Below are positions 1-49,171 of a stretch of 64,000 nt of DNA, in pieces. The stretch is from assembly GCA_045539135.1 (NCBI GenBank), contig JAZQET010000061.1:1032-65031 (forward strand). Reading direction: 5' to 3'. Position 1 is the stretch's first letter. Every line of letters begins with the position of its first letter. A program made the translations under genes and the position numbers. This DNA comes from Eubacteriales bacterium. GTDB lineage: Bacteria > Bacillota > Clostridia > Oscillospirales > QAKW01. A model generated the notes under the pieces. It was not told the DNA's origin. It made no database searches and worked only from the letters and a program-made list of their open reading frames with translations.

Positions 1-677
1 CGGCCGATGATGCGACCCTTCATTTCATCACTGGGCAGAGCCACGACCGACACGGTGGATTCCACCACATGGTCTGCGGCGCATTTCTGAATGGCGAGAG
101 AAAGCAGATGCTTTGCACGCTCATCCAGATCTTCCTTGAACTTCCCTTCATGCTCGGTGATCCGAAGGGCATATTCATGCTCCAGCTCCGAATCCATCAT
201 ATGAAGCAGTTCTGCTTTTGCGGCCTCTGCGGAATAACCGCTGATCCGCTCCAACACAGCAATCTGGGCTTTTTTGACTTCCTCGACCTCTTGCTGCAGG
301 GTTTCCACCTTCTTTTGCTTTTCCGAAAGAAGTTCTTCCTTGCGGTCGATATTGTCGTACTTTTTGTCCAGCATTTCTTCCCGTTGCTGCAGCCGTTTTT
401 CCTGCCGTGTTACCTCCACACGACGCTCTTTTAAATCTTTTTCCTGCTCGGTGCGCTCTCTGAGCAATTCTTCTTTTGCTTCTAAAAGCGCCTCCTTCTT
501 TTTGGTGTTTGCAGTTTGGATAGCATCGTTGATAATGCGCTTTGCTTCTTCCTTGGCAGAGCCGATCTGCTTTTCACCGGTCTTTTTACGGTATAAAAAG
601 CCGGCAAGGAACATCCCAAAGCCCACGATAACAGCAGCAATCACAACGGCGGCAACAAGAGTCCAAATTCCTACCAT
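1..677 (-). CDS. rny: Ribonuclease Y, N-terminal part (rest of gene lies beyond the left edge)
   Basis: Not in the ORF track because it is truncated. My reverse-strand translation from ATG 677 (GGAGG about 8 nt upstream) reads [49 protein letters not shown], then a coiled coil, then [31 protein letters not shown]. This is a TM anchor, coiled coil and start of a KH domain, the RNase Y architecture. Confidence 0.85.
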
Positions 678-876
678 GGTTTGTTACCTCCGATTATGAA
701 ATTTTTGGCGGGTCCGTAGGGGGACCCTATAATATATTGTGAAAAATATACTAATTTACCACTACATATTATAGGTGTTTTACGACATTCTGTCAAGGGA
801 AAATTGGCAGTTGCAATAATTTATTAATAATGATATACTTTTATATGTATAAGTATCTCTAACGGAGGGCATATTC

Positions 877-1671
877 TTGTTTTCATTTTTATACAGTATG
901 TTCCTTGGCTTTTTTGAGGTTTTCCCTCTCTCTGCCCAAGGAGCGGATACGGTGCTGGGCGCCCTTTTGGGGAAAGCACTTCCGTCGGTGAGCGGCAGTT
1001 GGATCTTCGGTGCCCTTTTGGGCACCCTGCTTGCGTTCCCCAAAATCACAGGAGCCGCCGCCAAAGGCTTCGGTACCCTTACCGCTGGACTCTTTCGTGG
1101 CACCTTGAAGTGGCGGAAAGCCAAAAAAGAACAGATGGCAAGCGTTTATGCCCTTCTTTGCGCCCTGCCTTTAGCGGTGATGCTGTTGGTGCTGCAGGAA
1201 ACGACCATCGGCTCGGGGCTTGGGTTCATCGGTCTGATGTTCCTTGCCTCGGCGGCGCTGCTCTTCATCGGGGACCATACCCTTTCCCAAGAAACCTCTC
1301 TTTTAGAGATGAAGCCCACCCACGTGATCAAAGCCGCCCTCTTTCAGGCGGTGGCGCTCATCCCCGGCCTCTCCCGCACGGGGGTGACCTTGGGAATGAC
1401 CCTGAATATGGGCTTTCGCCGTGAAGATGCCTTTGATTTTGCGGTGGTACTGACCGTTCCCGCCCTTTTGGTGCTTGGACTTTGGAATGTGGGCACCTTT
1501 GCCGCTTTCGGCGCGCTCAATGCCCTTCTTTCCTTTGCAGGGGGCGCGGCAGGCGCCTTTTTGGGCGGAATGCTCTTGAAAGGGTTGTTCAAAAAAGATC
1601 TTCTTAATATCGCTGTTGCCTTGGGCGCCCTTGCAGGCGCGGCAACGGTCATTTTCAGTTTTGTGAGGTAA
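877..1671 (+). CDS. uppP: Undecaprenyl-diphosphatase (BacA/UppP family) polytopic membrane protein
   Basis: 264-aa ORF with a TTG start and GGAGGG upstream. It is multi-TM and carries EVFPLSAQGA and IPGLSRTGVTLG motifs resembling the two UppP signature motifs. Confidence 0.7.
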   Translation: MFSFLYSMFLGFFEVFPLSAQGADTVLGALLGKALPSVSGSWIFGALLGTLLAFPKITGAAAKGFGTLTAGLFRGTLKWRKAKKEQMASVYALLCALPLAVMLLVLQETTIGSGLGFIGLMFLASAALLFIGDHTLSQETSLLEMKPTHVIKAALFQAVALIPGLSRTGVTLGMTLNMGFRREDAFDFAVVLTVPALLVLGLWNVGTFAAFGALNALLSFAGGAAGAFLGGMLLKGLFKKDLLNIAVALGALAGAATVIFSFVR

Positions 1672-1675
1672 AAGA

Positions 1676-4030
1676 ATGCCGAGAAAAAGCAAAAAACAAC
1701 TGCTTGCCGAGCAGCAGGCAGAGAAAAAAGCCAAAAGGGAAGCCTCCCGCCGCAGTATTCAGGCGGTGGTGTTCTTTTCCTTCGCCCTGTTGATGGCTCT
1801 TTACATCTATACACCCATCAATGTGCCCTTAAAAACCTGGTTGATCGGGTTTTTAAGGGGAATGTTCGGTGCCGCCACCTTCCTGTTCCCCGCCTTCTTG
1901 GTGTGGCTGGGCGTGGACGCACTGGATAAGGATAAAAAATACAGCACCGCCGTGAAATGCTGGACAGGCCTGCTCCTTGCCGCGGTGGTCTCTGCCGCAA
2001 GCTTCATTATCTGGTACCCCGGTTCTTATTCCTTTGCGGAATTTTTCGGCAAGGGTCTTGCCGACTTCTGGAGCCAAGGGCAAGCCCTCCAAGGAGGCTT
2101 GGTGGGCGGATTTATCGCCTGCCCCTTAATTATGCTGATGTCCCGCTGGGGCTTTTCCATCCTGATCATCGCCCTGACCCTGATCGGCATCCTCTTCTTC
2201 TTTGACCTGACCCTCTATCAGATGGCCGCCCCCTTCCGTATGCTGGCGGCTTCGGTGAAGGAGCAACGGGAGAGACCTGTTTTGGTGGAGAATGTGGAAG
2301 AAGAAAAGCTTCGCCGCCATTTCGCCGATGTGAAGGCGGATGAAGAGAAAGAGGAAGAGCCTGTGTGGGTGCCTCCCGTGGATGTAACGCCTCCCGAAGA
2401 GATCACCGACATTATGCCGGTGTTTGTGTATGACGATGTGACCGCCGAAGGCAACATCGACCCTGCCGACATCGGCAGTTACGGCGAAAAGCCCAAGCGC
2501 ACCCGCAAGCCTGCGGTGCGCAAGCCTGCCGCTCCCGAAGCACCCTTGGAAGGGGAGCAACTTCATTTGTATAACTTCCCGCCCCTCTCCCTCTTGAAGG
2601 CAGGGCGGCAGTCGGCAGGCGCGGCGCAGGCAGAGCTGCGGGAAAAGGAAGAGATCCTTCTCCAGACCCTCTTGGATTTCGGCATCGAAGCCACTATGAC
2701 CGGCATCGCCGTGGGACCCAATGTTACCCGCTTTGAGCTGGCGCCCAAGGCAGGAATCCGTATCAGCCGTATTGCCGGCCTTTCGGATAACCTTGCCATG
2801 GCCCTTGCCGCCACCCAGATCCGTATCGAAGCCCCCATCCCCGGCAAAGCCGCGGTGGGGATTGAGATCCCCAATAAAACGGTGAGCACCGTCTTTATTC
2901 GGGAGGTTCTTTCTTCCGAAAACTTCCAAGACGGCAAAAGCCCCCTCACCGCCGCCTTGGGCAAGGATATTGCAGGCAACCTGATCACCTTCGATGTTGC
3001 CAAAATGCCCCACCTGCTGGTGGCAGGTACCACCGGCTCCGGTAAATCCGTTTGTATCAATACCATTTTGATGTCCATTCTTTATAAGGCCACCCCCGAG
3101 GAGGTGAAATTGATCCTCGTCGACCCCAAAGCGGTGGAGATGGATGTGTATAACGGCATCCCCCACCTGCTGATCCCCGTGGTCACCAATCCCAAAAAGG
3201 CGGCAGGCACCCTGCAATGGGCCTGCACCGAGATGGATCGCCGCTATGACCTGATGAAAAATACGCAGGTGCGGAATTTGGAGGCCTATAACGATTATTG
3301 CAAGACCCATTCCGATTATCAGCCCATGCCCCGCATTGTGGTGATCATCGACGAGCTGGCAGACCTGATGATGGTCTCCTCCAAGGAAGTGGAGGATTGC
3401 ATCTGCCGTCTGTGCGCCAAAGCGCGTGCCGCAGGGATCCACCTGATCGTTGCCACCCAGCGTCCTTCTGCGGATGTGGTCACCGGTCTGATCAAGGCAA
3501 ACATCCCCTCCCGTATCGCCTTTACCGTGGATAACGCCCTCAACTCCCGTATTATTCTGGATGAAAACGGCGCAGAAAAACTGCTGGGTCGCGGCGATAT
3601 GCTGTATAAACCCATCGGCGCCAATAAGCCCCTGCGGGTGCAGGGCTGCTTTGTGGCAGATGGGGAAGTGGAGGCGGTGGTCTCCTATGTGAAGAATAAT
3701 TCCATGGGCGCCCAATATGACCAATCCACCATCTCCACCATCGAAAACCTTTCCATGCAGGGCAATAAGAGCACCAATGCCTCCGAGGAAAGCGAAAACA
3801 CCGGCTATGATGAACTGCTGGTGCAGGCAGGCGAATGCGTCATCGAGATGGGGATGGCATCCACCTCCATGCTCCAGCGCCGCCTGAAGCTGGGCTACTC
3901 CCGCGCAGGGCGGATCGTGGATCAGCTCCATGAGCTGGGGATCATCGGACCCTTTGAGGGATCGAAACCCAGACAGGTATTGGTCACCATGGACGAGTTC
4001 AGAGAGATCTGCGTCCAACGCGACCTGTAA
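1676..4030 (+). CDS. ftsK: DNA translocase FtsK/SpoIIIE
   Basis: 784 aa with N-terminal TM helices and a Pro/Glu-rich linker. Walker A is LLVAGTTGSGKSV. IVVIIDELADLMM and HLIVATQRPS are present, and the C-terminal gamma winged-helix region reads MLQRRLKLGYSRAGRIVDQLHELGIIG. Confidence 0.95.
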   Translation: MPRKSKKQLLAEQQAEKKAKREASRRSIQAVVFFSFALLMALYIYTPINVPLKTWLIGFLRGMFGAATFLFPAFLVWLGVDALDKDKKYSTAVKCWTGLLLAAVVSAASFIIWYPGSYSFAEFFGKGLADFWSQGQALQGGLVGGFIACPLIMLMSRWGFSILIIALTLIGILFFFDLTLYQMAAPFRMLAASVKEQRERPVLVENVEEEKLRRHFADVKADEEKEEEPVWVPPVDVTPPEEITDIMPVFVYDDVTAEGNIDPADIGSYGEKPKRTRKPAVRKPAAPEAPLEGEQLHLYNFPPLSLLKAGRQSAGAAQAELREKEEILLQTLLDFGIEATMTGIAVGPNVTRFELAPKAGIRISRIAGLSDNLAMALAATQIRIEAPIPGKAAVGIEIPNKTVSTVFIREVLSSENFQDGKSPLTAALGKDIAGNLITFDVAKMPHLLVAGTTGSGKSVCINTILMSILYKATPEEVKLILVDPKAVEMDVYNGIPHLLIPVVTNPKKAAGTLQWACTEMDRRYDLMKNTQVRNLEAYNDYCKTHSDYQPMPRIVVIIDELADLMMVSSKEVEDCICRLCAKARAAGIHLIVATQRPSADVVTGLIKANIPSRIAFTVDNALNSRIILDENGAEKLLGRGDMLYKPIGANKPLRVQGCFVADGEVEAVVSYVKNNSMGAQYDQSTISTIENLSMQGNKSTNASEESENTGYDELLVQAGECVIEMGMASTSMLQRRLKLGYSRAGRIVDQLHELGIIGPFEGSKPRQVLVTMDEFREICVQRDL

Positions 4031-4134
4031 AAACCGCTAAAAAGAGCGCACATTCTGCCGATCCCGCCGCTCGGCGTATCACATACGCCTTCGGGCGTGC
4101 TCAACAAAATCTGCATCTCTTTTAAGCGGTTTTA
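4029..4134. repeat. TIR-bounded intergenic repeat, copy 1 (AAACCGCTNAAA...TTTNAGCGGTTT family)
   Basis: The ends AAAAACCGCTAAAAAG and CTTTTAAGCGGTTTTAG are inverted. The internal hairpin is GGCGTATCACATACGCC. About 75% identical (reverse orientation) to 4204-4315 and to copies at 55661-56013. Confidence 0.7.
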
Positions 4135-4151
4135 GAAAAGAGTATATAGAA

Positions 4152-4181
4152 GAACAGCCTCCCGATTTTGGGAGGCTGTTC
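4152..4181. terminator. Bidirectional rho-independent terminator between convergent ftsK and rsmG
   Basis: GAACAGCCTCCC-GATTTT-GGGAGGCTGTTC, a perfect 12-bp stem with A/T-rich flanks on both sides. Confidence 0.8.
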
Positions 4182-4203
4182 TTATTTCATCTATAAAGAG
4201 TTT

Positions 4204-4315
4204 GAACCCGCTCAAAACGGATGAAGATCGCTGTTTCTTCGTTCGAAGGCGTATGTGATACGCCGAGAAAAGAAAAACAGCGAAGCCTTGCGGTCTTCGC
4301 CGTTTTCAGCGGTTT
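4204..4315. repeat. TIR-bounded intergenic repeat, copy 2 (inverted relative to copy 1)
   Basis: Ends are GAACCCGCTCAAAACGG and CCGTTTTCAGCGGTTT. The internal hairpin GGCGTATGTGATACGCC is shared with copy 1. The right end overlaps the rsmG stop codon. Confidence 0.7.
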
Positions 4316-5033
4316 ACCCTATGGGCTTTTCTTTGATTTGTTTCGGACTTCTCGGATATGCTTTGGGTGTGTCCCCGATTTTCCGAATCACCAAAATCGC
4401 CCGCTTATCTTCCTCTTGGGGCAGGGTATAGTGGTAAACCTTTTCCACCTTGCCGCCCAAGATGCGGATGGCCTTTTGGGCGCGCTCCAATTCTTCGTCG
4501 GCGGTGGCGCCTTTATAGGCAATGAGGGCGCCGCCCACCTTCACCAAGGGCAGGCAATATTCGCAAAGCTTGGAAAGCTCCGCCACCGCGCGGGAAACAG
4601 CGATGTCGTATTGACGGCGCAGGGCAGGATCCCGCCCTGCGTCCTCGGCGCGGGCGTGGTGCGTCTTGATGGCGGAAAGGGACATAGCATCAATGCACCC
4701 GTCCAAAAAGGTCAGCCGCTTTTGAAGGGAATCCAAAAGGGTCATCTTCAGGTCGGGGCGGGCAAGCTTTAAGGGCATAGAGGGAAATCCGCCCCCGCAG
4801 CCCACATCCACCACCGTGGCATTTTCGGGGAAGATGCCCTTGGAAACAGGGTAAATGCTATCCCAATAATGCTTTTTCATCATCTCTTCGGGGTCGGTAA
4901 TGGCGGTAAGGTTCATCACCTGATTGGTTTCCAACAGGCGGAACTCAAAGGTAAGAAGCTGCTCTTCAAAGGCGGGAGGCATAGAAACTCCTTCCTGCTC
5001 CAAAAGGGCACGCAACCGTTTCATTCGTTCCAT
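4314..5033 (-). CDS. rsmG: 16S rRNA (guanine527-N7)-methyltransferase RsmG (GidB)
   Basis: 239 aa with SAM motif VVDVGCGGGFPSMPL, in the conserved position downstream of mnmG. Confidence 0.93.
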   Translation of the reverse strand: MERMKRLRALLEQEGVSMPPAFEEQLLTFEFRLLETNQVMNLTAITDPEEMMKKHYWDSIYPVSKGIFPENATVVDVGCGGGFPSMPLKLARPDLKMTLLDSLQKRLTFLDGCIDAMSLSAIKTHHARAEDAGRDPALRRQYDIAVSRAVAELSKLCEYCLPLVKVGGALIAYKGATADEELERAQKAIRILGGKVEKVYHYTLPQEEDKRAILVIRKIGDTPKAYPRSPKQIKEKPIG

Positions 5034-6922
5034 TATTTCCGCCTCCTTTGCTCCAGTTCCAGCATCAGCACGCTGATATCCGCAGGGCTGACCCCGCTGA
5101 TGCGGCTTGCCTGCCCGATGCTCACGGGACGCACTGCCGCCAATTTTTGCCGCGCCTCCAGCCGAAGTCCTTCCATTTCGGAATAGTTCAGGTCCTCCGG
5201 CAGACGGCGATTTTCCAATTTTTGAAATTCCCGCACCTTGGCAAGCTGTTTCTCAATGTATCCCTCATATTTGATGGAGATCTCCGCCTGCTTGGCTTCC
5301 CGACGGGTCAGGGCGGGGCGGTTGGGATCCACCGGCGCCAGATCGTCGTAGGTCACCTGCGGGCGGGCGATCAGATCGGCAAGGGATGCCCCTGCGGTAA
5401 GGGGTGCGGTGCCGCAAGCCACCAAAATGGCATTGGCGGTCTCATCGTTATGGGAAAGGTGGGTGGTGCGCAGCCGCTGAATTTCCTCTTCAATATGTTG
5501 CTTTTTCTCCAAAAACCGCTGATACCGCTCCTGGGAGATCAGCCCGATCTCATAGCCCATGGGGGTGAGGCGCAGGTCTGCGTTATCCTGCCGCAAAAGC
5601 AGGCGGTATTCACTGCGGCTGGTCATCATCCGATAGGGTTCGGGGGTGCCCTTGGTCACCAGATCGTCAATCAAGGTGCCGATGTAGGAGGAAGCCCGAT
5701 CCAGAATAAAGGGCTCTTTGCCCTGAATCTTGCGGGCGGCATTGATTCCTGCCACCAAGCCTTGGGCGGCGGCCTCCTCATAGCCGGAGGAGCCGTTGAA
5801 CTGCCCTGCACCGTAAAGACCCTTCAGGTTCTTAAATTCCAAGGTGGGCAGAAGGGCTTGGGGATCCACGCAATCGTATTGAATGGCATAGGCCACCCGC
5901 ATAATTTCGGCATTTTCCAACCCGCGGATGGAATGGATAAACTGCCGTTGCACGTGCTCGGGCAGGGAGGAGGAAAGACCCTGCAGATACATCTCCTCCG
6001 TATCCTTGCCGCAGGGCTCCACAAACAGTTGGTGGGCGGTCTTTTCCTTGAACCGCATAATTTTATCTTCAATGCTGGGGCAATAGCGGGGTCCGATGCC
6101 GTGGATCTGCCCGCTGTAGATGGGGGAGAGGTGAATATTCTCCCGAATGATCTCGTGGGTGGTTTCGTTGGTGGCGGTCAGGTAGCAAACCTCGGTGTTT
6201 TCCCCGATCTCCTCGTGTTCAAAAGAGAAGGGAATGATCTCCCGATCCCCCTCCTGCAGGCTCATTTTGGAAAAATCCAAGGAGCGGCGGTTGACCCGCG
6301 CAGGAGTTCCTGTTTTGAAGGTGCGCAAGGGCACACCCAATGCCTTCAGGCAGTCGCTTAACTGATTGGCGGGAAACATTCCGTCGGGTCCGCCGGGGAG
6401 CTGGCTCTTGCCGATGATGATCTCCCCTTTAAGATAGGTGCCGGTGGCAAGGATCACCGCCTTGGCACCGTAGCGGGCGCCCAAGTGGGTCACCACTGCG
6501 GTCACCTGACCCTCTTCCGCTTCGATCTCCACGATCTCTCCTTGGATCAACAGCAGATTTTCCTGCTTTTCCAAGGCGTGCTTCATATATTGGCTGTAGC
6601 CCCGACGGTCCGATTGCACCCGCAGGGAATGCACCGCAGGCCCCTTGCCCAAGTTCAGCATTCTGCTTTGCAGGAAGGTGGCGTCTGCCGCCTTGCCCAT
6701 CTCGCCGCCCAAGGCATCGATCTCGCAGACCAAATGCCCCTTGGCGGTGCCGCCGATGGAGGGGTTGCAGGGCATATTGCCCACCCCGTCCAGACAGATG
6801 GTAAAGACCCCTACCCGACATCCCAGTCGGGCAGCGGCAAGCCCCGCCTCAATGCCGGCATGTCCCGCGCCGATCACGGCAATATCTAAATTTTCAACCT
6901 GATATTTTTCCATTCTTACCAC
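5033..6922 (-). CDS. mnmG: tRNA uridine 5-carboxymethylaminomethyl modification enzyme MnmG (GidA)
   Basis: 629 aa with FAD motif DIAVIGAGHAGIEAG and the GidA signature GPRYCPSIEDKI. An alternative ATG start lies at 6913. Confidence 0.96.
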   Translation of the reverse strand: MVRMEKYQVENLDIAVIGAGHAGIEAGLAAARLGCRVGVFTICLDGVGNMPCNPSIGGTAKGHLVCEIDALGGEMGKAADATFLQSRMLNLGKGPAVHSLRVQSDRRGYSQYMKHALEKQENLLLIQGEIVEIEAEEGQVTAVVTHLGARYGAKAVILATGTYLKGEIIIGKSQLPGGPDGMFPANQLSDCLKALGVPLRTFKTGTPARVNRRSLDFSKMSLQEGDREIIPFSFEHEEIGENTEVCYLTATNETTHEIIRENIHLSPIYSGQIHGIGPRYCPSIEDKIMRFKEKTAHQLFVEPCGKDTEEMYLQGLSSSLPEHVQRQFIHSIRGLENAEIMRVAYAIQYDCVDPQALLPTLEFKNLKGLYGAGQFNGSSGYEEAAAQGLVAGINAARKIQGKEPFILDRASSYIGTLIDDLVTKGTPEPYRMMTSRSEYRLLLRQDNADLRLTPMGYEIGLISQERYQRFLEKKQHIEEEIQRLRTTHLSHNDETANAILVACGTAPLTAGASLADLIARPQVTYDDLAPVDPNRPALTRREAKQAEISIKYEGYIEKQLAKVREFQKLENRRLPEDLNYSEMEGLRLEARQKLAAVRPVSIGQASRISGVSPADISVLMLELEQRRRK

Positions 6923-7003
6923 ACAATCGTTTTGATTTTATACGCCTTAAAAAAGGCGGTTAAGTTGTTTTGTTAAAAGGGAAAAGACGCAAAAATCACC
7001 CGC

Positions 7004-8368
7004 TTACTTTCCTACACAGAACTTGGAAAATATATTATCTATCATTTTTTCCGTTACTGTGTTTCCCGTCACCTCTCCCACCGCGCTTGCGGCTTCGGTA
7101 ATATCCAAAGAGACCACATCGGGGGTAAAGCCCAGCTCCAGCCCTTCAATGGCTTTGGCGATATATTCTTTGCCTGCGGTCAGCCGCCCGATTTGAGAAA
7201 GGGAGGTGAGCACCCCTTCTGCGGCGGTGTCCTCCACCGAGAATTGCTCCCGCACCCATTGATCCAGTTGGGCGCACCCTGCCCCTGTTTGGGCAGAAAG
7301 TTCAACGCAATGTATAAATTTGCTCTTAATATACTCTATGTCTGCTATCATCGGCTGATCTGCCTTGTTAATGATGGCTAAATTCCGTTCGTTGCCGAAG
7401 GCATCAATGATGGCAAGGTCCTCCTCATCCAAGGGTCGGAACCCGTCAAACACCGCAAAGACCACTTGGGCTTCTTGGGCTTTTTTGCGGGCAATGTCAA
7501 TGCCCTGCCGCTCGATGGGGTCGGCGGTGGTGCGCATTCCTGCGGTGTCTGCCAAATGGCATTGAAGCCCGCCCAAGCGACAGCCTTCGGTGACCGTGTC
7601 GCGGGTGGTGCCGGCGATGTCCGAAACAATACTGCGGTCATATCCTAACAGTTGGTTCATCAAGGTACTCTTGCCCACATTGGGCGCGCCCACAATGGCG
7701 ATCTGCAACCCCTCTTTGATCAACTGCCCCTGATGGGCGCCTGCCAAAAGCGCCTCCAAGGCTTCTTGAATGGCTTTCAGCTCTGCCAGCGTGTCCTCTT
7801 CGGGAGCGTCCACCTCTTCGGGGAAATCCACATAGGCCAAAAGGGCGGTGTTCAGCTCCACCAATCGCTCATAAAGAGCGGTGATCTTTTTGGAAAGATG
7901 CCCCTCCATCTGGGAAAGGGCATTTTTTTGCTGGGCACGGGATTGGGCTTCGATCAGGTCGATCACCGCCTGCGCCTTTAAGAGGTCTAATTTTCCGTTC
8001 AAAAAGGCACGCTTGGAAAATTCCCCCGCCTCGGCAGGGCGGCATCCCCCCCGAAGCAACAGCTCCATTACGCTCTGCAACACAAATAACCCGCCGTGAC
8101 AGCAAAGCTCCGCCGTCTCTTCCCCCGTGTAGGAATGAGGGGCGGGGTAATAGGTCACAATCGCTTCATCGTAAACCTCTCCCTTTTCCGCAATGCGGCA
8201 AAGGGTTGCCTTGCGCGGGCATAAGGAAACCGCCTCTCCCTTTTGATTTTGCAAAAGAGGGGAGAGGATCTTTAAGGTTTCGGGACCGCTCACGCGGATG
8301 ATCCCCAGCGCCGCAGTGGCGGGGGCGGTGGCAATGGCACAGATGGTATCGCTCATATTCGACCTCAT
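7004..8368 (-). CDS. mnmE: tRNA modification GTPase MnmE (TrmE)
   Basis: 454 aa with G-domain motifs GAPNVGKSTL and DTAG and the C-terminal FCVGK tetrapeptide typical of MnmE. An alternative ATG start lies at 8353. Confidence 0.96.
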   Translation of the reverse strand: MRSNMSDTICAIATAPATAALGIIRVSGPETLKILSPLLQNQKGEAVSLCPRKATLCRIAEKGEVYDEAIVTYYPAPHSYTGEETAELCCHGGLFVLQSVMELLLRGGCRPAEAGEFSKRAFLNGKLDLLKAQAVIDLIEAQSRAQQKNALSQMEGHLSKKITALYERLVELNTALLAYVDFPEEVDAPEEDTLAELKAIQEALEALLAGAHQGQLIKEGLQIAIVGAPNVGKSTLMNQLLGYDRSIVSDIAGTTRDTVTEGCRLGGLQCHLADTAGMRTTADPIERQGIDIARKKAQEAQVVFAVFDGFRPLDEEDLAIIDAFGNERNLAIINKADQPMIADIEYIKSKFIHCVELSAQTGAGCAQLDQWVREQFSVEDTAAEGVLTSLSQIGRLTAGKEYIAKAIEGLELGFTPDVVSLDITEAASAVGEVTGNTVTEKMIDNIFSKFCVGK

Positions 8369-8437
8369 AAAAAAGAATATTCATTTTATTTTACAACATT
8401 ATCGTAAAACTTGCAAGAACCTTGCAGTAAATATTCT

Positions 8438-8819
8438 TTCACAACAAAATGTTGTGAACATTATTAAACCCACTGCTTTTCCTGTTCCATCTTTTTTCAC
8501 AACAAAATGTTGTGAAGCCTGTAAACCCCATCTACTTTTTAACTTCGGTGTTTGTTTTCACAACAAAATGTTGTGAAACCTGTAAAAGCTCTCCCTCATT
8601 CTCACGGTTGACTTCTTTTCACAACAAAATGTTGTGAACCTTATAAAACCGCCTACTTTTTTCTGCGACACTTGTTTTCACAACAAAATGTTGTGAAGCC
8701 TGTAAACCTCATCTACTTTTTAACTGCGGCATTTGTTTTCACAACAAAATGTTGTGAAGATTATAAACCTCATCTACTTTTTTACTGCGGTGTTTGTTTT
8801 CACAACATTTTGTTGTGAA
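8438..8819. repeat. Array A: 7 copies of the palindrome TTCACAACA-AAA-TGTTGTGAA in a 58-61 bp tandem unit
   Basis: 21-mers start at 8438, 8496, 8557, 8618, 8677, 8738 and 8799 (the last has a TTTT centre). Inter-palindrome segments are related to each other (GCCTGTAAACCYCATCTACTTTTTAACTKCGG..TTTGTT). No credible ORF. Confidence 0.9.
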
Positions 8820-9004
8820 GTGGGATCAAGCAAGAAGGCGCTTGCTCAGGTGTGACAAAAATGTCTGTAGAAAATTTCTTGCTGTTTTTGTGCAAGTTGG
8901 AGAAAAGAAACTTTCTTTCCGAAAACTGTTTACAAGAAGAATATTTCTTGTTATAGTGAAATTATGAAAGGTTGTTCGGTCTTTGGATCAGAAAGGAGAA
9001 AACG

Positions 9005-9697
9005 ATGAAAAAAATCATTCGCACCATGACGCTGACGCTGTGTTTGCTGTTCACCATACTTTCTTTTTCCGCCTGTCAAACAAAGGAACCGATGACAGAA
9101 GACCCCAAGGACACCGCTCCGCCCACTGTTTCTCAAGAACCCACCTTACCGGAGGATGAGGGCGCGCGGGATACAGAAGGGGACCCTCGACTGGAGCGAG
9201 CCTATGATGCCAGACTCTACAGTATTAACAGTTCGTTGCTTCAATACATTCAAGAAAACAACAAAGAGATCGACCTGAACGGTTGGTTGCAGGCAGAAAG
9301 CGAAAAAACCAAGCAATTAAAATACGGCATCTCCGCACCGGAGGAAGTGCCCTCTTTGCTTTCGGTGATCAAGGAATTTCGCATTCCGCGATCGGCCTTT
9401 GAAGCCATCAATGATGATATGATCGCCGGTTATGAAAAAAGAGAAGGCGGGGGACAAGCCCTAATCGCACAACACTGCTACACCAAAGAGGAGATCGATG
9501 CCCTTTATTCCGAGGATCCCTCCCGCATCACCGAGGCTTTTGCTGCGGAATATGCCGTTGTTGCCAACGGAAAAGCCTATGCCCCCAACTTTTATCTCTA
9601 CGCTACGGAAGAAGAATTGAACACCCACGGCATTTCCGCGGCGCAGATCAAGACCCAAAAAGACCGCTTGCTTTCGGATAAAGTTCTTTCCGAATAG
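9005..9697 (+). CDS. Hypothetical lipoprotein
   Basis: MKKIIRTMTLTLCLLFTILSFSAC is a signal peptide plus lipobox. GGAGAA RBS precedes ATG 9005 (the ORF track starts earlier, at 8972). I recognise no family. Confidence 0.7.
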   Translation: MKKIIRTMTLTLCLLFTILSFSACQTKEPMTEDPKDTAPPTVSQEPTLPEDEGARDTEGDPRLERAYDARLYSINSSLLQYIQENNKEIDLNGWLQAESEKTKQLKYGISAPEEVPSLLSVIKEFRIPRSAFEAINDDMIAGYEKREGGGQALIAQHCYTKEEIDALYSEDPSRITEAFAAEYAVVANGKAYAPNFYLYATEEELNTHGISAAQIKTQKDRLLSDKVLSE

Positions 9698-9874
9698 AGT
9701 GAGTTCATTCGAACCGAAACTGCCTTTTGGCAGGCCTCTTCGGCGATTTTCGGCGCGCTTTCAGGCGCCTTGCGCCATGCTCCTAAAGAACACAAAGCAA
9801 TGAATTGCCATGAGGCGTGAATTGGCTCACGCCATGATTTGCACCGTCGGTGCATGAATTGCCTGCAGCATTAT

Positions 9875-9915
9875 AAAAAGGACAGAGAATGTTTGACATT
9901 CTCTGTCCTTTTTTT
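9875..9915. terminator. Bidirectional terminator (lipoprotein gene / jag)
   Basis: AAAAAGGACAGAGAATG-TTTGA-CATTCTCTGTCCTTTTTTT, with an A-tract and a T-tract flanking a 12-bp stem. Confidence 0.8.
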
Positions 9916-9933
9916 GCAATCATATTGCGTTTT

Positions 9934-10737
9934 TTACTTCTTATAACTGACCACGACCCGTCTCTTGGGCTCGGAGCCAACAGAGAAGGTGGTGATATGG
10001 TTCTTGCCGGTGAGGGCGGCGTGGATGATGCGGCGCTCATAGGGGCTCATGGGCTCCATAGTGATGTTTCTCTTATACTTCAGCGCCTTTTCCGCATTGC
10101 GCTCTGCCAAGCTCTGCAGAGTGCGGATCCGCTTTGCGCGGTAGTTTTCGGTATCAATGGTCACCCGCAGCTTATCGCCGCTTTTGCCCTTATTGAGCAC
10201 CAAGCCGCAAAGATACTGAGCAGCGTCCAAGGTCTCGCCCCGTCTGCCGATCAGCACGCCCATTTTGGCACCGCTGACTTCCGCGTAATAATGACCGTCT
10301 TCGCCCAGCTCAACCTTCACTGCGCTGTCTTCCTCGGCACCGATGTGCACCAAAAGACCGCTGATGAATTCGATGATCTTTTTGGAGTTCTCATCATCCA
10401 CAGGGCTCTTCTGAACCTCTTCAAAAAGAGGTGCAGCGGGTTCTTTCTTCTCAACGGGTTCTTTCTTGGGAGATTCCTTTTTTGCCTTTTTAGAGAGTTT
10501 TTCAGGCTCCCAGGCAGGAATCTTCACTTCCTTCTTGGGGGCGGCAGGCTTCTCATCGGGCATTTCCACCTCCACACGGATCTTGGCGGGGGTAGCACCG
10601 ATGCCGAAGATGCCCTTAGAGGGGGTCTCTTCCACCGTATAGATCAAAAGATCTTTATCTTCGCCCAGCTCAGCTGCTGCAGTTTCCACAGCCGCTTCGA
10701 TGGTCTTTCCTTCAAAAAATAATTCTTTGATTGCCAT
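9934..10737 (-). CDS. jag: Jag/KhpB (SpoIIIJ-associated, KH + R3H RNA-binding protein)
   Basis: 267 aa. The Jag_N start is MAIKELFFEGKTIEAAVETAAAELG, followed by a Lys/Glu linker and C-terminal KH/R3H (MSPYERRIIHAAL). Conserved position after yidC. Confidence 0.9.
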   Translation of the reverse strand: MAIKELFFEGKTIEAAVETAAAELGEDKDLLIYTVEETPSKGIFGIGATPAKIRVEVEMPDEKPAAPKKEVKIPAWEPEKLSKKAKKESPKKEPVEKKEPAAPLFEEVQKSPVDDENSKKIIEFISGLLVHIGAEEDSAVKVELGEDGHYYAEVSGAKMGVLIGRRGETLDAAQYLCGLVLNKGKSGDKLRVTIDTENYRAKRIRTLQSLAERNAEKALKYKRNITMEPMSPYERRIIHAALTGKNHITTFSVGSEPKRRVVVSYKK

Positions 10738-24070: not shown

Positions 24071-24117
24071 AAAAGATACGGCGGAGTTCCATTAGGAGCG
24101 CCGCCGCCGTTTTTTTT
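24071..24117. terminator. Bidirectional terminator
   Basis: AAAAAGATACGGCGG...CCGCCGTTTTTTTT, a GC stem flanked by an A-tract and a T-tract between convergent genes. Confidence 0.7.
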
Positions 24118-25435
24118 ATAGATGTTTTTTTGCAAAGGAAACAATGTATTCCGGACGATATAGAGTCAAGTTCATAAATTCGGTTTCTTCCGGCCAAAAA
24201 ATCCCATCGGCGTATCGCTCAATATAAGGATCGATAAAGTCCGAATCATATGCTTGCAAATAGTCGTAAGCATATTCAAAGATCATCACATTGCCTTTAG
24301 AAATCGCCGTTTTACAAATCTGGATCAACAGATCGTCTTTAGGCTGTTCTTTGATTTCGGGGAAAAGGATAACCTTCGGAACATCGTCCTCTACATAGCA
24401 TAAAGCATAATTATAATATAATACGACCTCTAAATCTCCAACATAAAAGCCTCTGGAATTAAACGGACAGATTAAGTCGTCATAATTGAACTTTTTAATA
24501 TTATGTATATCTTCATAACCAATAGAGTATTTGATCTTTTGAGAAACCAATTCTTTTTCCGTATAACAAACACGACGAGTGATTTTTCTTTCATCGATTT
24601 TTTTGGAAAAACCGATACCAATGTATCCTGTAGAAAAAGTGCTGATATTTCCCGCCGAAGAAGCAGGGGCAATCAATAACTTGATAATAAAGAATGCCTG
24701 TAAACAAAGCCAAAGAGCCATTATACGGGCAACCAACGGCATCAGCCATTCTCTTTTGGGAAGTTTTGGAGATGGTTTGTCACCCTTATTATACATATCC
24801 ACCAAAAAGATTCCGCTTCCCAAGAGAACATCCAGCGCTAAATCCATGATTCTGCAATTATAAGTATAGTTTTTTAGGCGAATATCCAAAAATTCGATTT
24901 CAGGCAACAATTTTTTCGCCACGGATGCATATTGCGCATAATCCAAGCCCGCAAACACGGTATAAACCGCGGCACCAAGAATCAGCCAAAGAAGAATGAC
25001 TTTTATTTTTTTACCTTTGAAAAAGTTTTTGGTCAAAATTCCGTAAAACACAAACCAAGAAAGAGCAGTCAGCGCGCCGAACATCAAAGGCGTTGCAGGG
25101 TGGGAAATGGAATTTAATCCAAAACGAAGAAGATCAAAAAACAGTTGAACGATCATTAAAAGAGCAATTTCTTTCACATAAAACCGTTCGGCAAAGGAAA
25201 GACCCGAACCCAAAAAGGTGTTTTTGGTAAAAACGGTGTCTTTTTTTATAAAACAAACGCATAAAAAGAAAAAGTAGAGCAGGTGAAACAGAAGGCTCCA
25301 AACCATCGCCAAAATGGAGGAGACACCGCTCCATTCAAAAATCCGCTTGGGATAACAGTTTCCCAGCCAATATGTGAAGCATAGGAAAAACAGCGTTAGA
25401 ATATTCAGTATAATGATCTCTGTTTTTTTGCGCAC
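24116..25435 (-). CDS. Hypothetical polytopic membrane protein with a C-terminal soluble domain of about 170 aa (low-GC island)
   Basis: 439 aa with about 8 hydrophobic helices followed by a Tyr/Asp/Glu-rich soluble domain. Codon usage and GC are visibly lower than in flanking genes. I recognise no family. Confidence 0.65.
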   Translation of the reverse strand: MRKKTEIIILNILTLFFLCFTYWLGNCYPKRIFEWSGVSSILAMVWSLLFHLLYFFFLCVCFIKKDTVFTKNTFLGSGLSFAERFYVKEIALLMIVQLFFDLLRFGLNSISHPATPLMFGALTALSWFVFYGILTKNFFKGKKIKVILLWLILGAAVYTVFAGLDYAQYASVAKKLLPEIEFLDIRLKNYTYNCRIMDLALDVLLGSGIFLVDMYNKGDKPSPKLPKREWLMPLVARIMALWLCLQAFFIIKLLIAPASSAGNISTFSTGYIGIGFSKKIDERKITRRVCYTEKELVSQKIKYSIGYEDIHNIKKFNYDDLICPFNSRGFYVGDLEVVLYYNYALCYVEDDVPKVILFPEIKEQPKDDLLIQICKTAISKGNVMIFEYAYDYLQAYDSDFIDPYIERYADGIFWPEETEFMNLTLYRPEYIVSFAKKHL

Positions 25436-25479: not shown

Positions 25480-25692
25480 TTACTTTTGAATTTTCGGTTG
25501 GTTGCTGACTCCTAATAAATAGTCAACGGAAACATTGTAGTGCTTGGAAAGCATGATCAATACTTTGGTAGGGATGTCCCGCTTGCCCAGCTCGTAAGCG
25601 CTGTATGCCTGCTGAGTGCAGTTCAGATATTCGCAGATGTGATATTGGTTAAAGCCATTGCCTTCTCGTAATTCTTTCAATCTTTTATACAT
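25480..25692 (-). CDS. XRE/Cro-C1 family helix-turn-helix transcriptional regulator (70 aa)
   Basis: MYKRLKELREGNGFNQYHICEYLNCTQQAYSAYELGKRDIPTKVLIMLSKHYNVSVDYLLG is a canonical HTH_3. ATG 25692 has GAAGGGA about 10 nt upstream (the track ORF starts at GTG 25701). Confidence 0.88.
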   Translation of the reverse strand: MYKRLKELREGNGFNQYHICEYLNCTQQAYSAYELGKRDIPTKVLIMLSKHYNVSVDYLLGVSNQPKIQK

Positions 25693-25718: not shown

Positions 25719-25747
25719 ATTATATCATCCCCGCCATTTCTTGTAAA
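25719..25747 (-). promoter_or_regulatory. Predicted sigma-A promoter of the XRE gene
   Basis: The minus strand reads TTTACA (25747-25742), 17 nt, then TATAAT (25724-25719). Confidence 0.6.
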
Positions 25748-25799: not shown

Positions 25800-27008
25800 T
25801 TCACAACATTTTGTTGTGAAGGCGATGAGGATCGTTGTTTTTTGGGGTAGTTTTTGGTCTGCACAACATTTTGTTGTGAAGCTAAAATTACAGGTTTCTA
25901 CAATTTTTCCTTGTATAGCGGAAGCCATTGTTCCTCACAACATTTTGTTGTGAGGAACAATTAAATTGTGCGCCGCACACATCCGGCATACTCTTCAATG
26001 ACACAACAAAATGTTGTGTAGACCAAAATCATTCTGCACTGAACACCCCCACACACTTGCTTACACAACAAAATGTTGTGAAAACAGGAGACGAGGCGGG
26101 TTGTTATTCATTGGATCACAAGACCGCACAACAAAATGTTGTGATGAATAGAAGAGTTTCTTAAAAAAAGAGTAAAAACGGTTTCACAACAAAATGTTGT
26201 GCAAATCGAAAGAGTTCAGCGAAACGGAGGGAAACGGGTTTCACAACAAAATGTTGTGAAAGTGGAGAACGAAGAACTCTACTTCCTATTTTTAAGTTTG
26301 CACAACAAAATGTTGTGTAGCCAAACCGAGTGCTTCTCATAGAGTTTTCATACAAAAAAGAAAAGAAACATTTTCACAACAAAATGTTGTGAAAATGGTA
26401 GGCACAGCAGATTATATTGCATTGGATTATATAGCTCCACAACAAAATGTTGTGAGGATTAAATCGGCGCAGTCTGTAGGGAACACAGTTATTATTCTTC
26501 ACAACAAAATGTTGTGAAGAAAGAGGAAAAGCGTTCCGGTGACACTCTATTATTGTATTTCACAACAAATTGTTGTGAAGCCTTGAGGGTCGTTGTTTTA
26601 TGATGGGCATATGATTTGTCACAACATTTTGTTGTGAAACTTATTGGATATAAGGTTATTTTACGCACTTTGTAAAGTGGTTTTTGCTTCCACAACAAAT
26701 TGTTGTGAAGATCAAAGAAAACTTATTTTAGGAAAGGGTGTATGTGTCGCACAACATTTTGTTGTGGGGCTTATTGAGTGCGAGGTTTTTAGAGTGGTTT
26801 TAGGTTACACAACATTTTGTTGTGAAGATTATGAAACTTGTTCTTTTTTTGCATGGTGTATGTGTTGCACAACATTTTGTTGTGAAGTCATGATGCTCGT
26901 GCTCTTGTAACAAGGCTGATGGTTTTTCACAACATTTTGTTGTGATGGCTATGGAGAATGCCGATTATTCTTTATGGGTTTTGGGGTTTCACAACATTTT
27001 GTTGTGCT
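25800..27008. repeat. Array B: 20 copies of the palindrome CACAACA-WWW-TGTTGTG at 57-74 bp spacing with mostly unique spacers
   Basis: 21-mers start at 25800, 25860, 25934, 26000, 26062, 26125, 26183, 26240, 26299, 26373, 26436, 26498, 26559, 26618, 26689, 26748, 26806, 26866, 26926 and 26988. The 17-bp core is essentially invariant. The A/T centre changes polarity in blocks. Only short spurious ORFs cross it. Confidence 0.92.
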
Positions 27009-35431: not shown

Positions 35432-35712
35432 CCGCACAAATGAATTGTGCGGGAGAAGATAACGTAGCAGAGCACACAAATAGATTGTTCGGCAACAAAT
35501 TCCACAGAGGGAAGCGCACAAATAGATTGTGCGGGAGAAGATTCTGTAGAGGGTGCGCACAAATGAATTGTGCGGGAGACAGAGAAGTGTGGGAGGGCGC
35601 ACAAATAGATTGTGCGGCAGAGGGTATCACGGAAAGGATGCACAGCAGAACGCACAAATGAATTGTGCGGTAGAGGACTTCATAGAGGGGAACGCACAAA
35701 TGAATTGTGCGG
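35432..35712. repeat. Array C: 7 direct copies of the palindrome CCGCACAA-ATRRA-TTGTGCGG in a ~42 bp tandem unit
   Basis: 21-mers start at 35432, 35472, 35514, 35555, 35597, 35650 and 35692 (spacings 40, 42, 41, 42, 53, 42), all in the same orientation. Purine-rich spacers are related to each other (GAGAAGAT..GTAGAGGG). Confidence 0.9.
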
Positions 35713-37687: not shown

Positions 37688-37716
37688 TTGACAAATCTTT
37701 GAGCCCGTGATAGAAT
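37688..37716 (+). promoter_or_regulatory. Sigma-A promoter driving the cobalamin riboswitch leader
   Basis: TTGACA (37688-37693), 17 nt, then TAGAAT (37711-37716). Confidence 0.7.
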
Positions 37717-37730
37717 ACGGAGCAGAAACA

Positions 37731-39182: not shown

Positions 39183-39203
39183 ATTCCTTGGGGGATTTAT
39201 TTC

Positions 39204-39285
39204 ATTTCACATTCTGCCGCAGGCAGAATATTTCACAAGGCGCAAAGCGCCTTATTTCACATTTTGCGTCAGCAAAATATTTCAC
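39204..39285. repeat. Four ATTTCAC heptamers alternating with three unrelated short hairpins (24-26 bp period)
   Basis: ATTTCAC occurs at 39204, 39230, 39254 and 39279. The hairpins are ATTCTGCC-GCA-GGCAGAAT, AAGGCGC-AAA-GCGCCTT and ATTTTGC-GTCA-GCAAAAT. Confidence 0.8.
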
Positions 39286-47237: not shown

Positions 47238-47262
47238 GTTTCACAACATTTTGTTGTGAAAC
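47238..47262. repeat. Solo copy of the array A/B palindrome
   Basis: GTTTCACAACATTTTGTTGTGAAAC is a 25-bp palindrome (11-bp arms) in the intergenic space just before a bidirectional terminator. Confidence 0.9.
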
Positions 47263-49166: not shown

Positions 49167-49171
49167 AAAAA

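What the first reader, a model, noticed from the sequence alone, without database searches (positions are those of the whole stretch)
8438..8819. Second array of the same palindrome (7 copies, 58-61 bp period) on the opposite side of oriC, between mnmE and a lipoprotein gene
TTCACAACAAAATGTTGTGAA occurs at 8438, 8496, 8557, 8618, 8677 and 8738, with a TTTT-centred copy at 8799. Unlike array B, the whole ~60-bp unit is conserved here (GCCTGTAAACCYCATCTACTTTTTAACTKCGGYRTTTGTT). That looks like a recently amplified tandem repeat. Array B looks like an older or diversified version of the same architecture. Array A begins about 70 bp upstream of the mnmE start and lies about 5.4 kb left of dnaA. 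Array B lies about 11.6 kb to the right of dnaA. So the origin is bracketed by the same binding-site-like palindrome.
Basis: partly seen in the sequence, partly recalled or inferred. Interest (0 to 1): 0.7.

Follow-up and report, generated by a model that had tools for sequence, protein, structure and literature searches.

The report
Tandem repressor-operator array, not an origin element
The seven-copy palindrome array next to mnmE is real, but it looks like a fast-changing tandem array of binding sites for a small Cro/CI-type repressor encoded 17 kb away, and it is missing from the same origin region in the closest related species.

Summary
TTCACAACAAAATGTTGTGAA occurs at all seven stated positions, against 0 expected by chance. 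The origin-related interpretation is not supported.

- **Lineage-specific.** Array A lies in a 1.57-kb insert (8360-9931) between jag and mnmE that also carries a lipoprotein gene. The two closest species have the same origin synteny but an 81-110 bp jag-mnmE gap and no palindrome.
- **Linked to a repressor gene.** Array B directly abuts a 70-aa XRE (Cro/CI-type) HTH gene. In a related species that gene sits elsewhere, and the same 17-mer forms arrays on both sides of it. One copy there overlaps the gene's own promoter.
- **Operator class.** More distant homologues carry two palindromes of the same class in their promoters. A change in the recognition helix tracks a change in the half-site.
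- **Selection and turnover.** Palindrome cores change 3-5 times more slowly than the spacers between them. Unit content differs between strains.
- **Recurring design.** A second, different palindrome array precedes a second XRE gene in the same window.

My best reading is a hypervariable operator array for that repressor. What many sites achieve (sink, roadblock or multi-site repression) is inferred, not shown. I file it as a new variant of a known kind, of moderate interest.

The parts
8438..8819 (.). Array A. Seven copies of the palindrome TTCACAACA-AAA-TGTTGTGAA at 8438, 8496, 8557, 8618, 8677, 8738 and 8799 (the last has a TTT centre), separated by related 37-40 bp spacers.
   Evidence: Searches give the positions, with 0 expected by chance. 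One search shows the spacers are homologous. Searches show that unit content differs between strains.
8360..9931 (.). Lineage-specific 1.57-kb segment between jag and mnmE. It holds the present mnmE promoter region, array A, the lipoprotein gene and its terminator.
   Evidence: similarity to L163 and L158 ends at 8359 and resumes at 9932-9934. Those relatives have only 81-110 bp between jag and mnmE.
8388..8458 (-). Two promoter-like sites for the mnmE-mnmG-rsmG operon. One is TTGCAA-17-TAAAAT (8416 to 8388). The other is TTCACA-17-AATATT (8458 to 8430), whose -35 hexamer is the arm of the first palindrome.
   Evidence: consensus scan only. The ancestral promoter seen in relatives (TATAAT after a terminator) is not present here.
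7004..8368 (-). mnmE (tRNA modification GTPase), first gene of the mnmE-mnmG-rsmG operon, to the left of array A.
   Evidence: Pfam TrmE_N, MnmE_helical, MMR_HSR1. One search gives homologues of 450 aa.
8996..9697 (+). Lipoprotein gene with no Pfam family and a lipobox (LSFSAC). Its promoter-like site TTTACA-17-TATAGT lies at 8929-8957, about 110 bp right of the last palindrome. It is absent from the closest species.
25800..27008 (.). Array B. Twenty copies of the core CACAACA-WWW-TGTTGTG at 57-74 bp spacing. Centres run in blocks of TTT, then AAA, then TTT. Spacers are mostly unrelated to one another. The last copy lies inside the 3' end of the Na:Ala symporter gene.
   Evidence: Sibling strains have 15-20 copies.
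25480..25692 (-). Gene for a 70-aa XRE (Cro/CI-type, HTH_3) protein. It is the proposed binder of the palindrome and is transcribed away from array B.
   Evidence: Pfam HTH_3, E=1.2e-10. (best solved structure is ImmR of ICEBs1). (the same protein sits next to the array in 7 sibling contigs). (the array moves with the gene in a related species). (homologues' operators and covariation).
25719..25747 (-). Near-consensus promoter of the HTH gene, TTTACA-17-TG-TATAAT. Compared with the related species, its operator is degenerate here.
   Evidence: 11 of 12 matches. Searches compare the window (TACAAGAAATGGCGGGG) with L148 (TACAACAAAATGTTGTG).
24116..25435 (-). Gene for a 439-aa multi-pass membrane protein with no family hit, downstream of the HTH gene in a low-GC stretch. 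It is present in some strains and absent in others.
47240..47260 (.). Single copy of the same 21-mer, lying between the terminators of two convergent genes.

Best explanation
Array A is a tandem array of operator sites for the 70-aa Cro/CI-type (XRE) helix-turn-helix protein encoded at 25480-25692. It is not part of the replication origin.

The functional unit is the 17-21 bp palindrome: ACAAC half-sites around an AT-rich 3-bp centre. A dimer of the HTH protein probably binds it.

The arrays grow and shrink by whole-unit duplication and deletion between the palindromes. Unit length is inherited from the founder, about 60 bp in this species and about 45 bp in a related one. Each palindrome is kept intact by selection while the spacers drift.

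Array B stays beside the HTH gene. Array A is a satellite copy of the same unit type. It arrived next to mnmE inside a 1.57-kb lineage-specific segment that also carries a lipoprotein gene.

What is shown:
- the sequence facts;
- the linkage of the array to the HTH gene in two species;
- the operator class of the homologues;
- the slower change of the palindrome cores;
- the absence of the array from related origin regions.

What is inferred:
- that this HTH protein binds the palindrome;
- that the many bound sites form a high-occupancy repressor platform, which places the flanking promoters (the lipoprotein gene and the replaced mnmE promoter) under that repressor;
- that the platform may also act as a repressor sink or as a roadblock to read-through transcription.
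For: 1. Adjacency. The identical 70-aa HTH lies directly beside array B in 7 independent sibling contigs, whether or not the downstream membrane-protein gene is present.

2. Co-movement. In a related species the HTH is 90% identical while neighbouring genes are 59-94% identical, most of them 65-80%. There the HTH gene sits between an Exo_endo_phos gene and RecG. The same 17-mer forms arrays on both sides of it: 7-16 copies upstream at 44-47 bp and 7 copies downstream. The gyrA-deacetylase-symporter junction has none. The last upstream copy abuts the TATAAT of the HTH promoter, the layout expected for autoregulation.

3. Operator class. HTH homologues at 58-66% identity each carry two palindromes 25 bp apart in their own promoters. 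These read ATACAACAAAACATTGTAT or ATAAAACAATTTGTTTTAT.

4. Covariation. Helix-3 sequence CTQQAYS goes with (C/T)ACAACA half-sites in three proteins. C(T/S)QVCYS goes with AAAACA half-sites in two.

5. Independent association. Of the exact 17-mer hits found at chance level in public genomes and viral contigs, ten lie within about 100-400 bp of XRE repressor genes 36-42% identical to this one. These are Bacillales prophage immunity regions with 4-6 such sites.

6. Selection. In units matched between strains, palindrome cores differ at 0/289 positions against 28/770 in spacers (p=1.5e-4), and at 0/204 against 21/563 (p=0.002). In the middle of array B the spacers are not alignable, yet the cores are perfect.

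7. Recurrence. A different palindrome, CGCACAAAT(G/A)AATTGTGCG, forms a 6-copy array directly upstream of a second XRE gene at 35785-36087.

8. Not origin-specific.
Against: - Binding has not been shown. No ChIP, EMSA or expression data exist for this uncultured organism, and no RNA run holds the region.
- In the window species the operator overlapping the HTH promoter is degenerate, so autoregulation here is uncertain.
- Array A is 17 kb from the HTH gene, and its last copy is about 110 bp from the lipoprotein promoter. A regulatory effect there is conjecture.
- The covariation rests on only two recognition-helix types.
- The strain comparisons are not independent of one another.
- The array A variants come from short-read contigs (k=31), which could mis-join repeats.
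- Every array seen lies within about 20 kb of dnaA in both species. Only origin-proximal contigs were available, so origin-proximal enrichment cannot be excluded.
Confidence: 0.55

Rival explanations
1. One reading: the arrays are an origin-associated chromosome element, such as a centromere-like or origin-organising binding platform that brackets oriC.
For: In this window the arrays lie 5.4 kb left and 11.6 kb right of dnaA. In the related species the arrays are also within about 20 kb of dnaA. No parAB genes and no parS site occur in the 64 kb, so another origin-marking system is conceivable. The layout of tandem repeats, each holding a palindrome, resembles plasmid centromeres such as sopC (own knowledge).
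Against: Array A and its host segment are absent from the closest species, which have the same origin synteny. A further relative has none either. Array B's counterpart moved with the HTH gene rather than staying at a fixed origin position. Period and copy number differ between species and strains. The window has no partition NTPase and no ParB, and the arrays hold no DnaA boxes. A similar array with a different palindrome sits beside recA and a second XRE gene.
Confidence: 0.07
2. Selfish or neutral repeat DNA. A palindrome-containing satellite (REP/BIME-, MITE- or STAR-like) expands by slippage or a transposase and has no protein-binding role. Its closeness to the HTH gene is coincidental.
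For: The arrays are hypervariable between strains, lineage-specific and absent from 185,579 species-representative genomes as an array. A lone copy sits between convergent gene ends, as REPs do. The centre flips between AAA and TTT independently of spacer orientation. That pattern fits hairpin-templated replication errors (own knowledge of quasipalindrome template switching).
Against: Cores are conserved 3-5 times better than matched spacers within the species, and are identical between species whose spacers cannot be aligned. The 17-bp identity tracts are probably too short for gene conversion to explain this (inference). The window has no Y1/RAYT or other transposase. The array is linked to the HTH gene in two genomic contexts, and the palindrome belongs to the HTH family's operator class.
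Confidence: 0.15
3. The palindrome is a protein-binding site, but the binder is some other, unidentified protein, for example a nucleoid-associated protein or a recombinase, and not the neighbouring XRE HTH.
For: Binding has not been tested. Array A and the 47240 site are far from the HTH gene. The promoter-proximal operator of the HTH gene is degenerate in this species.
Against: The same palindrome overlaps the HTH promoter in the related species. The homologues' promoters, and the covariation, point to this family. The 3-bp centre is too short for the 6-8 bp crossover region of tyrosine recombinases and has the wrong parity for serine recombinases (own knowledge). The window has no recombinase gene.
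Confidence: 0.1
4. An RNA-level element: the arrays are transcribed and the hairpins act as terminators, processing sites or small RNAs, including an orphan CRISPR-like array.
For: Each palindrome can form a 9-10 bp hairpin (-7.7 kcal/mol as DNA, z=-4.0). Two units of array B have stems extended to 13 bp and followed by T-rich tails on the minus strand. The regular repeat-spacer layout, with unique spacers in the middle of array B, looks CRISPR-like.
Against: Array A units have no U-tract after the hairpin on either strand. The centre changes orientation within one array. The conserved repeat is only 17-21 nt. The 64 kb has no cas genes. The spacers match no phage or plasmid. There are no Rfam hits other than sub-threshold eukaryotic miRNA noise. 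Strains differ by internal unit loss, not by additions at one end.
Confidence: 0.06

Closest known systems
Cro/CI-type (XRE family) repressor-operator systems of temperate phages and ICEs, such as phage 434 OR1-3 and ImmR of ICEBs1
   Same: A small HTH_3 protein is encoded beside its sites. The operator is a 15-21 bp palindrome with ACAA/TTGT-type half-sites and an AT-rich centre that is not conserved. In the related species an operator overlaps the gene's own promoter. The best solved-structure match is ImmR. The TQQ start of helix 3 resembles 434 repressor and Cro, which read ACAA (own knowledge).
   Different: There are 7-20 sites in a regular tandem array at 45-60 bp spacing, instead of 2-6 sites at about 20-25 bp. 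Satellite arrays lie at unlinked loci. There is no phage or ICE context. Copy number is hypervariable.
Tandem-repeat plasmid centromeres: F sopC (12 x 43 bp, each with a SopB-binding inverted repeat), and parC/parH upstream of their own operons
   Same: These are head-to-tail repeats, each carrying one palindromic binding site. They lie beside the gene for the binding protein and also serve as its operator (own knowledge; parH in PMC3130281).
   Different: No ParA, ParM or TubZ NTPase accompanies the HTH. The HTH is not ParB or an RHH protein. The array is chromosomal and absent from sister species.
Mycobacteriophage L5/Bxb1 'stoperators'
   Same: Many (more than 20) copies of one repressor's site lie outside promoters, often at gene ends, where the bound repressor can block elongation (own knowledge).
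   Different: Stoperators are asymmetric 13-mers dispersed through a phage genome and oriented with transcription. They are not tandem palindromes on a bacterial chromosome.
False-CRISPR elements: tandem repeats and STAR-like elements (Zhang & Ye 2017, PMC5294841)
   Same: Short conserved repeats alternate with about 40-bp spacers, no cas genes are present, copy number varies between strains, and repeat finders would probably call them CRISPRs.
   Different: The STAR signature T[GAT]TGTTG[GT]GGCCC[CA] is absent. Here the repeat is a perfect AT-rich palindrome linked to a specific HTH gene.
Decoy transcription-factor site repeats (synthetic yeast study, PMC3322331)
   Same: Tandem repeats of a factor's binding site can sequester that factor and sharpen its dose response.
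   Different: That work is synthetic and eukaryotic. No natural bacterial example of this layout is known to me.

Membership tests
CRISPR array | Near-identical direct repeats of about 23-47 nt, in one orientation | tested here: not met
   The conserved core is 17 nt (21 nt in array A). Flanking bases vary in array B, and the asymmetric centre flips between AAA and TTT within one array.
CRISPR array | cas genes nearby | tested here: not met
   No Cas family was found among the Pfam-scanned ORFs of the 64-kb window.
CRISPR array | Unique spacers derived from mobile elements, with new spacers added at a leader end | tested here: not met
   Array A spacers are homologous to each other. Array B has no phage match and array A has no plasmid match. 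Strains differ by internal unit loss or swap.
ParABS chromosomal centromere | A parS site of the type TGTTNCACGTGAAACA | tested here: not met
   The window has 0 matches with up to 3 mismatches. The palindrome here is unrelated.
ParABS chromosomal centromere | parA and parB genes encoded nearby | tested here: not met
   rsmG is followed by FtsK and BacA. No ParA or ParB family was found in the scanned ORFs. The rest of the genome was not seen.
Plasmid-type tandem-repeat centromere (sopC, parC, parH) | Tandem repeats, each holding one binding site, beside the gene for the binding protein | tested here: met
   This holds for array B with the HTH gene and for the arrays of the related species. 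Array A itself is 17 kb from the HTH gene.
Plasmid-type tandem-repeat centromere (sopC, parC, parH) | A partition NTPase (ParA, ParM or TubZ) in the same operon | tested here: not met
   The genes downstream of the HTH encode a 439-aa membrane protein or a 175-aa signal-anchored protein, or nothing. None has an NTPase family.
oriC / DnaA-box cluster | DnaA boxes (TTATCCACA) in the repeat units | tested here: not met
   No box with up to 1 mismatch lies inside 8438-8819 or 25800-27008.
oriC / DnaA-box cluster | Conserved in the origin region of close relatives | tested here: not met
   L163, L158 and L160 have no palindrome copy (up to 3 mismatches), and L158 and L160 also have no tandem repeat with a period above 15.
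Cro/CI (XRE) repressor-operator system | An HTH_3 protein encoded next to palindromic sites | tested here: met
   Pfam HTH_3 E=1.2e-10. The first palindrome lies about 100 bp upstream of the gene.
Cro/CI (XRE) repressor-operator system | An operator overlapping the regulator's own promoter | tested here: inconclusive
   This is met in the related species, where the palindrome abuts TATAAT, and in the homologues. In the window the equivalent site has decayed to TACAAGAAATGGCGGGG.
Cro/CI (XRE) repressor-operator system | The protein binds the site | not testable with these tools
   This needs EMSA, DAP-seq or ChIP. The indirect support is covariation and co-movement.
REP/BIME with RAYT transposase | An associated Y1 (RAYT) transposase, and many dispersed copies at gene 3' ends | tested here: inconclusive
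   The window has no transposase family and only one dispersed copy, at 47240. The rest of the genome was not available.
STAR-like element | The signature T[GAT]TGTTG[GT]GGCCC[CA] | tested here: not met
   The repeat is AT-rich and palindromic and has no GGCCC. The signature is taken from PMC5294841.

The most novel reading that the evidence does not exclude
Small XRE repressor genes together with tandem arrays of their own operators form a previously undescribed kind of semi-mobile chromosomal module in uncultured gut Clostridia. The module relocates as a unit. It seeds satellite operator arrays at new loci, here replacing the mnmE promoter region and bringing in a lipoprotein gene. The many bound sites would act as a protein-DNA barrier or sink. 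That could mean insulation from read-through transcription, a sharp repression threshold for envelope-protein genes, or titration of the repressors of incoming phages that use the same operator class.
Probability: 0.15. Interest if true: 0.75.

Novelty: new variant of a known kind. Interest (0 to 1): 0.45.

Why it matters
If the reading is right, this is a natural bacterial example of a large homotypic operator array: 7-20 intact sites, kept by selection, that turn over quickly in copy number.

- It would be a ready-made system for asking what many extra binding sites do for a simple Cro-like repressor. Candidates are titration, roadblocking and cooperative silencing.
- It would show how a repressor's regulon can grow by copying whole operator units to new loci, including in front of a core housekeeping operon (mnmE-mnmG-rsmG).
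- It is a practical warning. Repeat finders will call such arrays CRISPRs, and their position here invites a false link with oriC.

Tried and rejected
- **Exact 17-mer scans.** The scan of 185,579 species-representative genomes gave 101 stretches with only 1-2 hits each, close to my rough estimate of what chance would give, and no arrays. The source species is apparently not in that collection. Viral contigs gave 29 single hits and none for the two-copy pattern.
- **Two-copy pattern in JGI metagenomes.** This gave one unrelated hit, L131, whose terminal inverted repeats suggest a transposon.
- **Exact-protein look-ups.** Look-ups for mnmE with two start codons and for the second HTH found nothing.
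- **CRISPR reading.** Rejected; see the membership test.
- **Recombinase-site reading.** Rejected, because the 3-bp centre is too short and there is no recombinase gene.
- **Terminator reading for array A.** Rejected, because no T-tract follows the hairpin.
- **Rfam.** Nothing at gathering score. At E up to 1 there was only eukaryotic miRNA noise.
- **Phage and plasmid BLAST of the arrays.** No match.
- **RNA-seq runs.** None is available.
- **Family searches for the cargo proteins.** The 439-aa, 406-aa and 175-aa cargo proteins had no PHROG or PADLOC hit, and no Pfam hit for the 439-aa and 175-aa proteins. The lipoprotein had only a marginal PHROG hit (Rz-like spanin, E=0.006).
- **Promoter-copy test.** I asked whether array units are copies of the HTH promoter-leader. 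Only marginal similarity appeared (best z about 3.3 among about 50 comparisons), so this stays a suggestion.
- **Helical phasing.** Not consistent in array B (R=0.37), which argues against a rigid wrapped structure.

Full report
**1.

The 21-mer TTCACAACAAAATGTTGTGAA is present at 8438, 8496, 8557, 8618, 8677 and 8738. Its centre-inverted form is at 8799. None is expected by chance: 0.00 in 100 shuffles, against 41 strand-matches in the window with up to 3 mismatches. Tandem Repeats Finder reports a period of 61 with 5.4 copies, and a period-181 higher-order repeat.

The surrounding genes are those of an origin region:
- BacA, FtsK, rsmG(-), mnmG(-), mnmE(-);
- array A, then a lipoprotein gene(+);
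- jag(-), yidC(-), yidD(-), a class II aminoacyl-tRNA synthetase(-);
- dnaA(+), dnaN, recF, gyrB, gyrA.

The GC skew changes sign near dnaA. The quoted spacer consensus fits only units 2, 5 and 6. Units 1, 3 and 4 are related but diverged.

**2. The other copies in the window**

Array B (25800-27008) has 20 copies of the core CACAACA-WWW-TGTTGTG, 57-74 bp apart. The asymmetric centre runs in blocks of TTT, then AAA, then TTT. One lone copy sits at 47240, between the terminators of two convergent genes.

Directly beside array B, and transcribed away from it, is a 70-aa HTH_3 (XRE, Cro/CI-type) gene at 25480-25692. It has a near-consensus promoter. A 439-aa membrane-protein gene follows it, in a low-GC stretch. 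The best solved-structure relative of the HTH is ImmR, the ICEBs1 repressor.

**3. The array goes with the HTH gene, not with the origin**

The identical HTH protein is found on seven sibling contigs. It is always next to array B, which has 15-20 units there. The membrane-protein gene is present in some contigs and absent in others.

A 69-aa protein from the same 90%-identity cluster belongs to a related species. Its RecA is 94% identical, gyrA 89%, RecG 78% and the symporter 66%. In that species the HTH gene lies elsewhere, between an Exo_endo_phos gene and a 175-aa gene, SASP and RecG. The very same 17-mer forms arrays on both sides of it: 7-16 copies upstream at 44-47 bp (some at 83-89 bp) and 7 copies downstream at 43-61 bp. 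The gyrA-deacetylase-symporter junction carries none. The last upstream copy runs straight into the TATAAT of the HTH promoter.

**4. The palindrome belongs to this HTH family's operator class**

Homologues at 58-66% identity have two palindromes 25 bp apart across their own promoters. These read ATACAACAAAACATTGTAT, or ATAAAACAATTTGTTTTAT.

Proteins with helix 3 beginning CTQQAYS go with (C/T)ACAACA half-sites. Those with C(T/S)QVCYS go with AAAACA half-sites.

Independently, ten of the chance-level exact 17-mer hits in public data lie beside XRE repressors that are 36-42% identical to this one. They are in Bacillales prophage immunity regions with 4-6 such sites.

From established knowledge, phage 434 repressor and Cro read ACAA half-sites with a QQ pair at the start of helix 3, and they tolerate AT-rich operator centres. 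That matches what is seen here, including the tolerated AAT and ATT centres.

**5. The cores are under selection and the arrays turn over**

In units matched between strains, cores differ at 0/289 positions against 28/770 in spacers (Fisher p=1.5e-4). A second pair gives 0/204 against 21/563 (p=0.002). Pooled, the figures are 18/2584 against 207/6984. These pairs are not independent. In the middle of array B the spacers are no longer alignable, yet the cores are perfect.

Deletions run exactly from palindrome to palindrome. Array A differs in every metagenome examined:
- four runs lack exactly units 2, 5 and 6;
- other runs skip 61, 180 or 259 bp, or carry a different spacer.

These are k=31 contigs, so long reads should confirm them. 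Some array B variants come from k=141 assemblies.

Spacing has no consistent helical phase in array B, and the period differs between species. The roughly 60-bp period is therefore most simply inherited from the duplicated unit, not imposed by a rigid structure.

**6. Array A is a lineage-specific insertion**

L163 (mnmE 82% identical) has the same gene order from glyS through rsmG, FtsK and BacA, and L158 (81%) has gyrB through dnaA to mnmE. In both, jag and mnmE are separated by only 81-110 bp, consisting of a terminator and a TATAAT promoter. They have no lipoprotein gene and no copy of the palindrome. A 76% relative, L160, has none either.

Similarity to the window stops at 8359 and resumes at 9932. 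So 8360-9931 is new in this lineage. It comprises the mnmE promoter region, array A, the lipoprotein gene and its terminator. Spacer A8740 aligns with spacer B26808, so array A descends from the same unit type as array B.

The units hold no DnaA boxes, and the window has no parS, ParA/ParB, cas or transposase genes.

**7. The architecture recurs**

At 35433-35711, six copies of a different palindrome, CGCACAAAT(G/A)AATTGTGCG, lie 41-82 bp apart (mostly 41-53). They sit directly upstream of a second XRE gene at 35785-36087. The related species has no such module next to recA.

**8. Mechanism**

Shown: the sequence anatomy, the linkage, the selection on the cores and the absence from related origin regions.

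Inferred: a dimer of the 70-aa protein binds each palindrome. The arrays expand and contract by recombination or slippage between the palindromes. The AAA/TTT centre flips independently of spacer orientation. That fits hairpin-templated switching, which is my own knowledge of quasipalindrome mutagenesis.

Also inferred is the role of the many sites: a high-occupancy platform that represses or insulates neighbouring promoters. Three observations bear on this.
- Each arm reads TTCACA, which matches the -35 consensus at 5 of 6 positions.
- Several array A units carry TATAAA 18 bp downstream of that arm, so the units may be decayed copies of a promoter-operator segment. The statistical support for this is marginal.
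- Arrays often sit at gene 3' ends, and two units of array B look like terminators. This leaves a roadblock or insulator role open.

The genes next to the arrays all encode envelope proteins: a lipoprotein, a 439-aa membrane protein and a 175-aa signal-anchored protein.

**9. Comparison and verdict**

The element works most like a Cro/CI operator set. In layout it resembles tandem-repeat plasmid centromeres and false-CRISPR tandem repeats. It fails the defining tests for CRISPR, parS, plasmid centromeres, DnaA-box clusters and STAR elements.

I found no description of such arrays in three literature searches. I file it as a new variant of a known kind, of moderate interest. The origin-bracketing idea should be dropped unless a complete genome shows origin-specific enrichment.

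Noticed in passing
window 35433-35711 and 35785-36087: A second module with the same design. Six copies of a different palindrome, CGCACAAAT(G/A)AATTGTGCG, lie 41-82 bp apart (mostly 41-53) directly upstream of a 100-aa XRE HTH gene, between recA and a MATE transporter gene. It is absent from the equivalent place in the related species (L148).
   Followed up: partly
window 24116-25435; loci L133-L138: The 439-aa membrane-protein gene downstream of the HTH lies in a low-GC stretch (0.385). It is present in some sibling strains, absent in others (L134, L137), and has a divergent N-terminus in L136. In the related species a 175-aa signal-anchored protein takes its place.
   Followed up: partly
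loci L001, L007, L017, L019, L024, L029, L060, L078, L124, L129: Bacillales prophage immunity regions use the same palindrome class, (A/C)CAACA-WWW-TGTTG(G/T), as 4-6 operators around divergent XRE repressor genes. One perfect copy lies inside the 3' end of a repressor gene.
   Followed up: partly
window 1-8400: rsmG is followed by FtsK and BacA instead of the noc/parA/parB genes that usually sit there in Firmicutes. No parS-like site occurs anywhere in the 64 kb.
   Followed up: partly
window 47283-47312; L163 about 4110-4180; L158 about 9920-9960: A terminator hairpin of the form AAGAGATTGCAA...TTGCAATCTCTT lies beside the lone palindrome at 47240. The same hairpin is the jag-mnmE terminator in the related species, so it may be a reused terminator or repeat family.
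   Followed up: no
window 49174-49269(-), 37696-37887(+), 39199-39287(-): Three Rfam hits lie above the gathering score. A THF riboswitch sits upstream of an ECF S-component gene (48552-49244). There is also a cobalamin riboswitch and a Gut-1 RNA.
   Followed up: no
window 61911-62048 and 63270-63457: In-frame tandem repeats (periods 18/72 and 27/54) encode K/E/P/D-rich low-complexity stretches. They lie in and just downstream of a pair of paralogous Exo_endo_phos genes (60271-61656 and 61747-63117).
   Followed up: no
L140 6217-6830: GC-rich palindromes, GGGCGCGC-N3-GCGCGCCC, recur at irregular 100-200 bp intervals downstream of an HTH homologue. They look REP-like and are unrelated to the array studied here.
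   Followed up: no
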